Positions 13,952 through 16,174 of a stretch of 64,000 bases of DNA are shown here, one piece after another; position 1 is the stretch's first letter, and every line of letters begins with the position of its first letter. The position numbers and the translations under genes are program-made. Below the pieces are notes generated by a model. The model saw nothing but the letters and a program-made list of their open reading frames with translations. It was not told where the DNA came from and did no database searches. Source of the stretch: Escherichia coli (GTDB taxonomy: Bacteria > Pseudomonadota > Gammaproteobacteria > Enterobacterales > Enterobacteriaceae); the NCBI RefSeq assembly GCF_003334385.1, contig NZ_QOWN01000003.1, one strand, 5' to 3'.

Positions 13952-16174
13952 TTAGTCCTCGTTTACAACCTTCTGCTGGGCGGCTTTTTTGGCCTGAGCG
14001 CGGGCAATAGCCGCGGCAACTGCCGCTTTGCGCGGATCAACCTGTTCTTCTGGTACCGCATTAGCCTGTTGCTGTTCCAGCTTGCGTGCTTTGGCGCGTG
14101 CAATAGCCGCTTCGACGGCAGCTTTGCGCGGATCAACCTGTTCTTCTGGCTCCGCATTAGCCGGTTGCTGTTCCCGTTTGCGCGCTTTGGCTCGGGCAAT
14201 AGCGGCTTCGACGGCGGCTTTGCGCGGATCGACCTGTTGTTCTGGCTCGGCATTAGCCTGTTGCTGTTCCAGCTTGCGTGCTTTGGCACGGGCAATAGCG
14301 GCTTCGACGGCGGCTTTGCGCGGATCGACCTGTTCTTCTGGTTCCGCATTAGCCTGTTGCTGTTCCAGCTTGCGCGCTTTGGCACGGGCAATAGCGGCTT
14401 CGACGGCGGCTTTGCGCGGATCGACCTGTTGTTCTGGTTCCGCATTAGCCTGTTGCTGTTCCAGCTTGCGCGCTTTGGCGCGGGCGATAGCTGCTTCAAC
14501 GGCAGTTTTACGTGGATCAGCAACGGTTGCTGCGTCGTTAGTTTGCTGCAGTTCTGCCTGTTTCGCTCTGGCTTGCGCTTTACGGGCTTCCCGTGCTGCA
14601 ATAATTGCACTGTTATCCGGGCGTTCGCCCGCTTTAATCACAATAGGCTGTGTAGCCTGGGCCTGTTTCTCTTTCACCCGCGCCAGAGCGGCAGCAATCG
14701 CATCTTTATCTTTGGCTGCAGGTTGAACGGCTGCGCTCTTATGTCGTTCAAGGCGAGCCGCTTTTTCGCGCTCCAGACGAGCCTGGCGCGCTTCGAAACG
14801 CGCTTTGGCTTCTGCGGCGCGCTTTTCTTCCTGACGAATAGCCGCAATTTCAGCTTTTTCCTGACGGAAATATTGCACCAGGGGAATATTGCTCGGGCAA
14901 ACCCACGCGCAAGCCCCACATTCAATGCAATCAGCAATGTTATGCGTGGTAGCTTTATCGTGTTGCTGACCTTTGCTGAACCAGTACAACTGTTGCGGCA
15001 AAAGATCCGCAGGGCAGGCGTCAGCACAGGCGCTACACCGGATGCAGCTTTGTTCTTCCTGTGGTTCGCCAAGTTCATTGGCAGAGGGAGCCAACAGACA
15101 GTTGGTAATCTTTACGACCGGGACATCCAGCCATGGCAAGGTAAAGCCCATTAGCGGGCCACCCATAATCACCATTTGATCGGCAGAGGGGCAGAATCCG
15201 GCATCATTCAATAAATGACGCACTGGCGTCCCCAGCCGTGCCCAGACGTTGCCCGGGCGAGCGATTGCTTCGCCAGTCAGGGTTACAACACGCTCGGTAA
15301 TCGGCTCGCCATCAATAACGGCACGTTTCACTGCATAAGCAGTGCCGACGTTTTGCATTAATACGCCGATATCGGATGAACGCCCGCCATGTGGAACCTG
15401 CTTCCCGGTCAGAATGTAGGTTAATTGTTTAGCACCGCCAGAAGGATATTTGGTTGGAATCACCCGCAGAGAAATATCGTTAGAGTCCGCCAGCACCGCG
15501 CGCAGCATGGAAATCGCCTGCGGTTTGTTATCTTCAATGCCGATAAGAATTTCGCGTGGCTGCAGAATATGCGCAAGAATGCGAATACCCTCTACGACCT
15601 GAGCCGCGCAATCCTGCATCAAACGGTCATCGGCGGTAATGTACGGCTCGCACTCAGCCGCGTTGATAATCAACGTTTCAATCTTATCTCCGCCACCCTG
15701 CAATTTAACGCCTGTCGGGAATCCTGCACCGCCCAGCCCGGCAACACCAAACTGATGTATGCGCTCGATTAACTCTTCGCGACTGCGAGTGCGATAATCG
15801 GCCCAGCCGTCGCGCGGGATCCAGCAGTCTTCACCATCGGCATCAATAATCACGCTTAATTCAGCTAAAGCTGAAGGATGAGCCGTAGAGTGGGGCGCAA
15901 TAGCCGTAACGGTACCCGAGGTGGGCGCGTGAACAGGCAGCATTTTGCCGCGACCACGGGTAAGCGGCTGGCCGCGCAATACTTTATCGCCGACGCTAAC
16001 GCACAACTCACCTTCAGCGCCAATATGCTGTTTCAGTGGAATAACAAAACGCTGCGCCAGGGGTACCTGGCGCAGGGGTGTACCGTTGGACTGGGTTTTC
16101 ATCTCCGGTGGATGGATGCCGCCGTTGAAATCCCAGATTTTATTTTTTCTGAATGCAGAGAATAACTTAAGCAT
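13952..16174 (-). CDS. rsxC: Rsx/Rnf complex subunit C (FeS, NADH-binding) with repetitive C-terminus
   Basis: 740 aa; two CxxCxxCxxxCP ferredoxin motifs visible; C-terminal 30-aa tandem repeats. Confidence 0.9.
13955..14490 (-). repeat. Tandem ~90-bp (30-codon) in-frame repeats, 5 full copies plus one degenerate, in the rsxC 3-prime end
   Basis: Protein repeat [29 protein letters not shown](Q/E)QV recurs 5 times then degenerates; DNA shows near-identical 90-bp units (e.g. ctgttcttctggttccgcattagcctgttgctgttccagcttgcg...). Confidence 0.85.

What the first reader, a model, noticed from the sequence alone, without database searches (positions are those of the whole stretch)
13955..14490. Five-plus-one in-frame 90-bp tandem repeats in the rsxC 3-prime region
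The repeat encodes a 30-residue Ala/Lys/Glu/Gln-rich unit ([32 protein letters not shown]). Near-perfect DNA tandem repeats are prone to slipped-strand or recombinational copy-number change, so RsxC length is likely polymorphic between strains. They also generate long spurious antisense ORFs (13847..15154, 14028..14726). Total length here (740 aa) equals K-12 as I recall it.
Basis: seen in the sequence. Interest (0 to 1): 0.4.

Follow-up and report, generated by a model that had tools for sequence, protein, structure and literature searches.

The report
Variable 96-bp repeats in rsxC
The 3' end of the E. coli rsxC gene holds five and a bit in-frame copies of a 96-base (not 90-base) unit whose number differs between strains; this is real but ordinary, and the strain-to-strain variation was already published in 2026.

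Summary
The repeat is real, but the period is 96 bp / 32 aa, not 90 bp / 30 aa. There are five full units at 14039..14518 and a degenerate 28-aa terminal unit at 13955..14038. All lie in frame on the minus strand in rsxC (13952..16174, 740 aa), which is identical to K-12 MG1655 b1629.

The copies are 85-96% identical to each other, so they are not near-perfect. Most differences between them are synonymous.

The predicted length polymorphism is confirmed. In two systematic samples of 5,425 complete E. coli genomes (118 resolved loci):
- 58% have 5 internal units
- 19% have 4
- 10% have 6
- 8% have 7
- 3% have 3
- 1% have 2

RsxC therefore ranges from 644 to 806 aa. Two records of the 2011 O104:H4 outbreak clone differ by one unit, with a clean hybrid junction. 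That is the signature of in-register misalignment or unequal exchange.

This polymorphism is already published: Jothi et al., BMC Genomics 2026, for E. coli, and Ham & Park 2023 for Erwinia.

One point I did not find stated in the papers searched. Each unit is a basic Ala-rich helix ([18 protein letters not shown]) followed by an acidic linker. The core is conserved in RnfC/RsxC tails across Gammaproteobacteria, while linker sequence and length (9-58 aa) are species-specific. The function of the tail is unknown.

The antisense ORFs exist at the stated coordinates and are best read as by-products.

The parts
13952..16174 (-). rsxC (b1629) coding sequence, 740 aa plus stop; subunit C of the Rsx/Rnf electron-transport complex
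   Evidence: ORF list. 0 mismatches to MG1655 rsxC. NCBIfam RsxC equivalog NF003454 scores 868 bits against a cut-off of 345.
14825..16174 (-). Catalytic core, aa 1-450: RnfC_N barrel-sandwich, NuoF-type FMN/NADH domain, SLBB, two [4Fe-4S] motifs
   Evidence: Pfam RnfC_N 14-115, Complex1_51K 139-283, SLBB 296-344, Fer4_7 376-430. Solved Rnf structures 8ahx, 7zc6 and 9eri align only within aa 14-498.
14519..14824 (-). Non-variable proximal tail, aa 451-552: a charged helix and two old, degenerate copies of the motif ([16 protein letters not shown]..., [20 protein letters not shown]...)
   Evidence: Translation. No Pfam domain. The same segments are conserved in Citrobacter, Enterobacter, Klebsiella and Salmonella tails. 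Predicted helical.
14423..14518 (-). Repeat unit 1 (aa 553-584), [32 protein letters not shown]
   Evidence: Units placed in register on DPRK anchors.
14327..14422 (-). Repeat unit 2 (aa 585-616)
14231..14326 (-). Repeat unit 3 (aa 617-648)
14135..14230 (-). Repeat unit 4 (aa 649-680), variant ...[15 protein letters not shown]
14039..14134 (-). Repeat unit 5 (aa 681-712)
13955..14038 (-). Terminal degenerate unit (aa 713-740), [28 protein letters not shown]. It is about 60% identical in DNA to the internal units. It is present in every E. coli allele examined and nearly identical in other enterobacterial genera.
13952..13960 (-). The last two rsxC codons and the stop (GAG GAC TAA). They contain a GAGG Shine-Dalgarno-like sequence 5 nt upstream of the abutting rsxD ATG (13951..13949). 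The array therefore sits just upstream of a translational-coupling junction that internal copy-number changes leave intact.
   Evidence: Read directly from the sequence. rsxD is at 12893..13951. The role as a ribosome-binding site is inferred.
13847..15154 (+). Antisense ORF, 435 aa. Judged spurious.
   Evidence: Listed. Its frame has a synonymous/non-synonymous ratio of 0.07 among 38 distinct unit variants. It starts inside rsxD. No annotated gene in MG1655.
14028..14726 (+). Antisense ORF, 232 aa, Cys/Ser/Ala/Leu-rich. Probably spurious.
   Evidence: Listed. It shares third-codon positions with rsxC, so the 3.1 ratio is uninformative. In this frame an antisense stop needs a sense TTA, CTA or TCA codon, and these are absent here. 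No annotated gene. No Rfam match.
13963..14610 (-). Out-of-frame sense-strand ORF, 215 aa, kept open by the repeat. Spurious.
   Evidence: The sense +1 frame has no stop in the array and a ratio of 0.14. Frame-shifted database translations of this kind occur, e.g. P0110, P0098 and the P0044 C-terminus.

Best explanation
This is a coding minisatellite in the 3' part of rsxC. Five 96-bp units plus a diverged terminal unit encode the distal part of a long C-terminal tail, attached to an otherwise standard RnfC-type NADH/FMN/Fe-S subunit.

Each 32-aa unit is one basic, Ala-rich helix ([18 protein letters not shown], net charge about +4) followed by a short acidic Gln/Glu/Pro linker (net about -3).

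The unit length is a multiple of three, and units share exact runs of up to 55 nt. In-register misalignment, either replication slippage or unequal sister/RecA exchange, can therefore add or remove whole units. The reading frame, the conserved terminal unit and the rsxD translation start all stay intact.

The products are RsxC proteins of 644-806 aa with 2-7 internal units. K-12 carries the commonest allele, with 5.

Change is faster than point substitution in the flanks, but slow enough that clones such as O157:H7 keep one allele. It is a lineage marker, not an on/off switch.

Shown: the anatomy, the polymorphism, the hybrid-unit junction, purifying selection on the peptide, and cross-genus conservation of the core.

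Inferred: the slippage/recombination mechanism, and that the tail acts as a flexible, multivalent, electrostatically interacting appendage whose valency, rather than its catalytic chemistry, is what varies. Its partner and its effect on SoxR reduction are unknown.
For: Anatomy:
- TRF gives period 96, 5.4 copies. Lag-96 self-identity is 0.68.
- Longest exact run at lag 96 is 55 nt, and 53 nt at lag 192.

Polymorphism:
- Spans and annotated CDS lengths in 118 systematically sampled genomes give 5 units in 69, 4 in 23, 6 in 12, 7 in 10, 3 in 3 and 2 in 1.
- Genomes whose 937 nt of flanks are 100% identical to K-12 carry 4 units (H61, H67). All sampled O157:H7 rows carry 6.

Mechanism:
- O104:H4 2011C-3493 (676 aa) and HUSEC2011 (708 aa) differ only by one unit.
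- The surviving unit is a chimera of units 2 and 3, with the crossover in a 14-nt identical stretch. There are 0 mismatches in 2.2 kb of flank.
- Lineage-specific homogenised unit variants, such as all-EQI arrays in L012, indicate concerted evolution.

Selection on the peptide:
- 38 distinct unit DNAs encode only 17 peptides. Variable sites by codon position are 8/6/20. The synonymous/non-synonymous ratio is 3.1.

Conservation:
- The same core occurs in Enterobacter, Citrobacter, Klebsiella, Yersinia, Dickeya, Edwardsiella, Erwinia, Aeromonas, Vibrio, Shewanella and Pseudoalteromonas RnfC/RsxC, with periods of 27-114 aa.
- Core charge is +3.6 to +5.6 and linker charge -2 to -8.5 in all 16 taxa.

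Structure:
- The single-sequence AF2 model has one helix per unit, low-confidence coil at the linkers and pTM 0.25.

The tail lies outside the catalytic module:
- Pfam and NCBIfam domains end by aa ~450-570.
- Solved Rnf complexes lack the tail.

Independent publication:
- PMC13185298 reports a 32-aa DPRK unit with 4-7 copies in 83 E. coli, concordant with MLST.
- PMC10587187 reports an Erwinia 40-aa unit with 0-5 copies, checked by PCR and sequencing.
Against: - The units are 4-15% diverged. Established work on diverged tandem repeats in E. coli (recalled, not retrieved here) shows this strongly suppresses slippage through mismatch repair. Rates may therefore be low, and no rate was measured.
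- The O104:H4 difference could be an assembly collapse rather than a biological event. This array clearly breaks short-read assemblies, as shown by the many 'partial' RsxC entries.
- No experiment links unit number to any phenotype. The 2026 paper states that functional effects were not validated.
- E. amylovora strains with 0 repeats exist (PMC10587187), so the array is dispensable at least there.
- The AF2 model is single-sequence and only suggestive.
Confidence: 0.9

Rival explanations
1. The array is functionally neutral filler. It is a tolerated low-complexity extension that expands and contracts by drift, and its copy number has no consequence.
For: - Copy number varies from 2 to 7 within one species without obvious cost.
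- E. amylovora strains with 0 repeats are viable pathogens (PMC10587187).
- Rnf complexes of A. vinelandii, C. tetanomorphum and A. woodii have no such tail.
- There is no Pfam domain and no solved homologue of the motif.
Against: - Unit variants differ mainly at synonymous sites: ratio 3.1, third-position excess 20 against 8 and 6.
- The 18-aa core is almost invariant across at least four orders of Gammaproteobacteria, while the linkers are unalignable.
- The charge-block design is retained in all 16 taxa examined.
- No sampled E. coli has lost the array entirely.
- Neutrality of copy number, as opposed to neutrality of the motif, is not excluded.
Confidence: 0.3
2. The apparent polymorphism is largely an assembly artefact: collapse or expansion of a repeat that is longer than the reads.
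For: - The tail query returns many truncated 'partial' RsxC entries with large memberships: P0001 has 184 members, P0011 has 204, P0036 has 172.
- Frame-shifted translations of the repeat also appear.
- Two records of one outbreak clone disagree by one unit.
- One record has a span that is not a multiple of 3 (H109).
Against: - The census used only assemblies labelled complete.
- Alleles are lineage-consistent. All sampled O157:H7 genomes have 6 units. All sampled copies of the 806-aa allele have 7 units, and the three read in full encode the identical protein WP_000915728.1. The same WP_ accessions recur in independent genomes.
- Alleles also differ in unit sequence, not only in number.
- Erwinia repeat numbers were confirmed by PCR and sequencing (PMC10587187).
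Confidence: 0.05
3. It is a contingency (phase- or rapidly variable) locus, used to switch or tune RsxC on a per-generation timescale.
For: - It is a tandem repeat inside a coding region.
- Genomes with identical flanks can differ in copy number.
- There is a possible within-outbreak change.
- An in-frame rsxC deletion is listed in one laboratory-evolved ATCC 25922 line (PMC7696260, table only; its position in the gene is not given).
Against: - The unit is 96 bp and a multiple of 3, so changes never switch the frame.
- Units are 4-15% diverged.
- Alleles are stable within clones and concordant with MLST (PMC13185298).
- All listed K-12 MG1655-labelled records and the BL21 record have 5 units.
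Confidence: 0.05
4. One of the long antisense ORFs (especially 14028..14726) is a real overlapping gene, and the repeat is constrained by it.
For: - The ORF is open for 232 codons.
- Its frame shows the same synonymous excess as rsxC, 3.1.
Against: - That frame shares wobble positions with rsxC, so the excess is expected without any coding.
- Openness follows from the absence of sense TTA, CTA and TCA codons in an Ala/Lys/Glu/Gln-rich stretch.
- The product is Cys/Ser/Ala low-complexity sequence.
- There is no annotation in MG1655.
- Across genera it is the rsxC-frame peptide core that is conserved.
Confidence: 0.03

Closest known systems
E. coli 'RSXC repeat polymorphism' (Jothi et al., BMC Genomics 2026, PMC13185298)
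   Same: It is the same locus and the same 32-aa unit starting with DPRK. Copy number and end motifs (QQV, EQV, EPV, EQI...) vary between strains and track MLST. Their count includes the terminal unit, so K-12 has '6'. WP_000915707.1 (their R7a) and WP_032252134.1 (their R7b) are among the alleles I recovered.
   Different: - K-12 is not in their 83-strain set. Its QQV/EQV pattern with 6 units matches none of their seven types.
- My sample of 5,425 complete genomes extends the range to 3-8 units. It finds 6 units (5+1) to be the commonest, not 6-7 as in their STEC-heavy set.
- They did not address mechanism, DNA-level junctions or cross-genus conservation.
Erwinia amylovora / E. pyrifoliae RsxC amino-acid repeat typing (Ham & Park, Sci Rep 2023, PMC10587187; Plant Dis 2024, cited there)
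   Same: It is the orthologous gene. The array starts at the same residue (553) and has the same core, [18 protein letters not shown]. It has 0-5 copies and has been proposed as a VNTR marker.
   Different: The unit is 40 aa, with a longer Ala/Pro-rich linker. Arrays can be lost completely in Erwinia.
Structurally characterised Rnf complexes (A. vinelandii 8ahx, C. tetanomorphum 7zc6, A. woodii 9eri)
   Same: The RnfC core (barrel-sandwich, FMN/NADH domain, two 4Fe-4S clusters) aligns to RsxC within aa 14-498 with E-values from 1e-121 to 1e-83.
   Different: Those RnfC proteins are 435-496 aa and have no repeat tail. No structure informs on residues 499-740.
Ala/Lys-rich helical or basic tails such as TolA domain II or histone-H1-like bacterial tails (recalled from memory; resemblance only)
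   Same: The composition is similar (Ala, Lys, Arg, Glu, Gln), helix propensity is high, and the sequence is repetitive.
   Different: No sequence relationship was detected. The PDB search with the unit gave only E > 3, and there are no Pfam or NCBIfam hits. The RsxC core is a specific, highly conserved 18-mer restricted to RnfC/RsxC.

Membership tests
RnfC/RsxC subunit of the Rnf/Rsx complex | RnfC_N barrel-sandwich domain, NuoF-type FMN/NADH domain, SLBB and two 4Fe-4S motifs | tested here: met
   Pfam hits PF13375, PF01512, PF10531 and PF12838. NCBIfam RsxC equivalog scores 868 bits against a cut-off of 345; TIGR01945 scores 597 bits.
RnfC/RsxC subunit of the Rnf/Rsx complex | Located in an rsxABCDGE(-nth) operon | tested here: met
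   rsxD, rsxG and rsxE ORFs lie downstream on the same strand. The locus matches MG1655 rsxABCDGE-nth with 2 mismatches in 9 kb.
Polymorphic coding minisatellite (VNTR with unit length divisible by 3) | Head-to-tail copies of one unit | tested here: met
   TRF period 96, 5.4 copies, 0% indels. Units in register.
Polymorphic coding minisatellite (VNTR with unit length divisible by 3) | Copy number differs between strains while the frame is preserved | tested here: met
   2-7 internal units, all intact ORFs of 644-806 aa.
RSXC repeat types of Jothi et al. 2026 | 32-aa unit beginning with DPRK; type defined by unit number and end motifs | tested here: met
   K-12 has 6 DPRK units with end motifs QQV/EQV. 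This is the same scheme, but the combination is not among the seven published types.
Contingency / phase-variable simple-sequence locus | Short unit (1-8 bp) whose gain or loss shifts the frame or the promoter spacing | tested here: not met
   The unit is 96 bp and in frame. No allele is frame-shifted by a unit change.
Contingency / phase-variable simple-sequence locus | High switching rate within clones | not testable with these tools
   There is only indirect evidence. Clones such as O157:H7 are uniform (PMC13185298), and one possible within-outbreak difference exists.
Membrane-targeting amphipathic helix | High hydrophobic moment with a hydrophobic face | tested here: not met
   muH is 0.02-0.05 and mean hydrophobicity about 0 for the core 18-mer, against 0.41 and 0.27 for a MinD-type control.

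The most novel reading that the evidence does not exclude
The RsxC/RnfC tail of Gammaproteobacteria is a conserved multivalent module. It consists of 2-11 copies of an almost invariant basic helix ([18 protein letters not shown]), spaced by species-specific acidic linkers and kept homogeneous by concerted evolution. The helix would dock a polyanionic partner, such as an acidic electron carrier like flavodoxin or ferredoxin, DNA-bound SoxR or the nucleoid, or acidic lipid head-groups. Unit number would set the avidity or reach of the Rsx/Rnf complex, so that strain-level copy-number variation tunes how fast the SoxRS response is switched off. Conservation of the core and selection on the peptide are shown here. 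The partner and any dosage effect are pure inference.
Probability: 0.2. Interest if true: 0.5.

Novelty: already known. Interest (0 to 1): 0.2.

Why it matters
Practically, the locus is a length-variable marker that breaks short-read assemblies and produces truncated or frame-shifted RsxC entries and spurious ORF calls. Annotators and typing schemes should expect this.

Biologically, about 25% of RsxC (aa 553-740) is a repeat array of unknown function. It is attached to the enzyme that switches off the SoxR oxidative-stress sensor. The strict conservation of the 18-aa core across Gammaproteobacteria, against free-running linkers, suggests a real but uncharacterised interaction motif.

That is a modest, testable lead rather than a surprise. 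The polymorphism itself is published.

Tried and rejected
- 90-bp periodicity: rejected (lag-90 identity 0.335 against 0.678 at lag 96).
- Domain or family for the tail: Pfam finds nothing beyond aa ~450. NCBIfam finds only the end of the RsxC model plus an insignificant RsxB hit, E = 0.78.
- Solved structure containing the motif: none, best E = 3.1.
- Known RNA family on either strand of 13500-15200: only isrG at 13.9 bits against a gathering score of 100, which is chance.
- Membrane-binding amphipathic helix: rejected by hydrophobic moment.
- Motif in non-RnfC proteins: of 88 cluster representatives in 1.84 billion, all 12 of the longest that I read carry the two RnfC-type Fe-S motifs (5 of them named RsxC by their sources), and the other hits are mostly short fragments. 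The 'DUF1192' hit P0110 is a frame-shifted translation of repeat DNA.
- Codon-position and synonymous/non-synonymous test against the antisense ORFs: decisive for 13847..15154, uninformative for 14028..14726 because wobble positions coincide.
- Literature searches for 'RnfC C-terminal extension', 'Rsx complex cryo-EM' and ydgN/b1629 with VNTR/MLVA gave nothing relevant.
- The rsxC-I525F mutation in a phosphate-starvation evolution study lies in the proximal tail but was judged null or neutral by its authors (PMC4759930).
- I did not run a full-length or multimer structure prediction. A shallow alignment and a floppy tail would not have been decisive.
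Full report
**What is there**

The window is K-12-like E. coli. A 9-kb stretch around the finding differs from MG1655 (NC_000913.3) at two bases, and the rsxC gene is identical. rsxC lies on the minus strand at 13952..16174 and encodes 740 aa.

Tandem Repeats Finder reports one array at 13998-14519, with period 96, 5.4 copies, 91% matches, no indels and score 813. Self-identity of the region is 0.678 at lag 96, 0.63 at lag 192 and 0.58 at lag 288. At lag 90 it is only 0.335, the same as other multiples of three.

Anchoring on the DPRK motif gives this layout:
- Five full 32-aa units at aa 553-712 (window 14039..14518).
- A 28-aa degenerate terminal unit at aa 713-740 (13955..14038).

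The array ends at 14518, not 14490.

Full units are 85-96% identical in DNA, and the terminal unit is about 60% identical to them. 'Near-perfect' overstates it. Even so, exact in-register runs of up to 55 nt exist between neighbouring units.

**Which strand and frame count**

Four of the six frames are open across the array.

I collected 38 distinct 96-bp unit sequences from 18 E. coli alleles. Variable sites fall 8/6/20 on rsxC codon positions 1/2/3, and the 38 DNAs encode only 17 peptides. The ratio of synonymous to non-synonymous codon differences by frame is:
- rsxC frame: 3.1
- frame of ORF 13847..15154: 0.07
- frame of ORF 14028..14726: 3.1

The third value is uninformative, because that antisense frame shares wobble positions with rsxC. 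Its openness follows from the absence of sense TTA, CTA and TCA codons in an Ala/Lys/Glu/Gln-rich stretch.

MG1655 annotation has no plus-strand gene here, and no Rfam family matches. Across genera it is the rsxC-frame peptide that is conserved (see below). I read all three extra ORFs as by-products.

**Is RsxC length polymorphic?**

Yes. I took two systematic samples of the 5,425 complete E. coli genomes that carry the locus, 60 evenly spaced rows each:
- The first used the native sequence, with ambiguous rows resolved by fetching loci.
- The second used an array-less query made of the two flanks, so that span minus 937 gives array length directly.

Together, 118 loci were resolved:

| Internal units | Genomes | RsxC length (aa) |
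|---|---|---|
| 5 | 69 | 740 / 742 |
| 4 | 23 | 708 / 709 |
| 6 | 12 | 772 / 773 |
| 7 | 10 | 806 |
| 3 | 3 | 676 |
| 2 | 1 | 644 |

A secondary 3-bp polymorphism adds a Gln to the QQQ run in some units, giving 33-aa units.

Two genomes whose flanks are 100% identical to K-12 carry 4 units (H61, H67). All sampled O157:H7 genomes carry 6, and the 806-aa allele always carries 7. Copy number therefore changes faster than flank SNPs accumulate, yet stays stable within clones.

Arrays within a lineage share private unit variants, for example all-EQI units in L012 or EPV units in O157. That is the signature of concerted evolution.

**Mechanism of change**

Two 'complete' records of the 2011 O104:H4 outbreak clone differ by exactly one unit. 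HUSEC2011 has 4 internal units (708 aa) and 2011C-3493 has 3 (676 aa).

The 2011C unit 2 carries the 5' variants of HUSEC unit 2 and the 3' variants of HUSEC unit 3. The switch lies within a 14-nt identical stretch, and there is no mismatch in 2.2 kb of flank.

That is the product expected from in-register misalignment, whether replication slippage or unequal exchange. I cannot tell here whether it happened in the bacteria or in an assembler.

The assembly caveat is real. The tail query against the protein collection returns mostly truncated 'partial' RsxC entries with large memberships, plus frame-shifted translations of the repeat.

**What the repeat encodes**

Pfam places all recognised domains within aa 14-430: RnfC_N, the NuoF-type FMN/NADH domain, SLBB and the 4Fe-4S dicluster. 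The NCBIfam RsxC equivalog ends at about aa 570. The solved Rnf complexes (8ahx, 7zc6, 9eri) have RnfC of 435-496 aa that align only within aa 14-498. The array is thus an appendage outside the catalytic module.

A single-sequence AlphaFold2 model of aa 434-740 gives one helix per unit, in register with the units, separated by low-confidence coil at ANAEPEEQV. Its pTM of 0.25 indicates no fixed tertiary arrangement; this is suggestive only.

The core 18-mer has net charge about +4 and the linker about -3. The hydrophobic moment of the core is 0.02-0.05, so it is not a membrane-type amphipathic helix.

**Comparison across taxa**

Tails of RnfC/RsxC carry 2-11 tandem units in all of these taxa: Citrobacter, Enterobacter, Klebsiella, Salmonella, Yersinia, Dickeya, Edwardsiella, Erwinia, Aeromonas, Vibrio vulnificus, Shewanella, Pseudoalteromonas, Paraferrimonas and Celerinatantimonas.

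The units share nearly the same core, (D/K)(P/K)(R/K)KAAV(A/E)AAIAR(A/V)KA(K/R)K. The linkers are species-specific, acidic, 9-58 aa long and homogenised within each species. Periods range from 27 to 114 aa.

A full HMMER scan of 1.84 billion cluster representatives with a two-unit query finds only 88 proteins. The 12 longest that I read all carry the two Fe-S motifs of RnfC, and most of the rest are short fragments. Clusters at 90% identity contain members of different lengths, for example Erwinia sp. at 773, 782, 825 and 1013 aa. Copy-number variation is therefore general.

The E. coli terminal unit is nearly identical to the terminal unit of other enterobacteria. Its last codons (GAG GAC TAA) supply a GAGG 5 nt upstream of the abutting rsxD ATG. 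This fits the observation that change is confined to internal units.

Upstream of the array, aa ~495-552 contain two old, degenerate copies of the same motif. These segments are conserved between genera.

**What is known**

The polymorphism is published.
- Jothi et al. (BMC Genomics 2026, PMC13185298) describe the 32-aa DPRK unit in 83 E. coli genomes. They report 4-7 copies counted with the terminal unit, end-motif variants and concordance with MLST, and they state that functional effects were not tested.
- Ham & Park (Sci Rep 2023, PMC10587187) describe a 40-aa unit with the same core in Erwinia amylovora, with 0-5 copies, confirmed by PCR and sequencing.
- K-12 is not in the E. coli set, and its allele (6 units, QQV/EQV ends) is not one of their seven types.
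- My samples extend the range to 3-8 units by their counting. They show the K-12 number to be the commonest in complete genomes.
- The motif string itself occurs in only one paper of the searchable library. I found no paper on the function of the tail.

**Verdict**

This is a real, ordinary and already described coding minisatellite.

The one point I did not find stated in the papers searched is the strict conservation of the basic core helix across Gammaproteobacteria, against free-running acidic linkers. That argues the tail is a selected, multivalent interaction module of unknown partner. Whether unit number matters for SoxR re-reduction remains untested.

Noticed in passing
L020 2253-4283 versus L003 2455-4581 (window equivalent 14039-14518): Two complete-genome records of the same 2011 O104:H4 outbreak clone (2011C-3493 and HUSEC2011) differ by exactly one 96-bp rsxC unit. 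The junction is a clean hybrid unit and the flanks are identical. This is either real in-clone change or an assembly collapse.
   Followed up: partly
L014 2878-4800 (XL10-Gold, NZ_CP081008.1); homology to the window starts at 14375: In this K-12 laboratory strain rsxC is annotated as a pseudogene lacking its C-terminus. The homology breaks inside repeat unit 2 and abuts foreign sequence next to a partial dicB (Qin prophage). A rearrangement breakpoint therefore lies within the array.
   Followed up: partly
Protein collection hits P0001, P0011, P0036, P0044, P0098, P0110: Public databases hold many truncated 'partial' RsxC entries (clusters of 170-200 members) and frame-shifted translations of the repeat DNA (GRRGGRHRPRQ...-type sequence). 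One of these is mislabelled as a DUF1192 protein. The array evidently breaks short-read assemblies and gene calls.
   Followed up: partly
L005, L010, L011, L013, L018, L019 (units with 33 aa): A second, smaller polymorphism sits inside the unit. An extra CAA codon lengthens the QQQ run to QQQQ in some units of B2-type alleles (742-, 709-, 773- and 806-aa proteins). L013 also has an NPRK instead of DPRK start in its terminal unit.
   Followed up: partly
window 17174 (rsxA) and 18873 (ydgJ): These are the only two differences from MG1655 NC_000913.3 in the 9 kb compared. The window is therefore K-12-like but not the reference sequence itself.
   Followed up: no
window 13952-13960 / rsxD start 13949-13951: The rsxC stop is immediately followed by the rsxD ATG (TAAATG). 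A GAGG sits inside the last rsxC codons. This looks like a translational-coupling junction embedded in the conserved terminal repeat unit.
   Followed up: no
summary (E. coli genomes): Seven of the 38,449 matching places for the repeat-containing query lie on records classed as plasmids, and one in the flank-only search. These were not examined. They may be F-prime-type plasmids or mis-assigned replicons.
   Followed up: no
tail aa 516-614 versus NCBIfam NF005415 (RsxB, PRK06991): There is a weak, non-significant similarity (E = 0.78) between the RsxC tail and the C-terminal part of a long RsxB model. This may only reflect shared Ala/Lys-rich composition. If real, it would mean that some lineages carry a similar tail on RnfB.
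   Followed up: no
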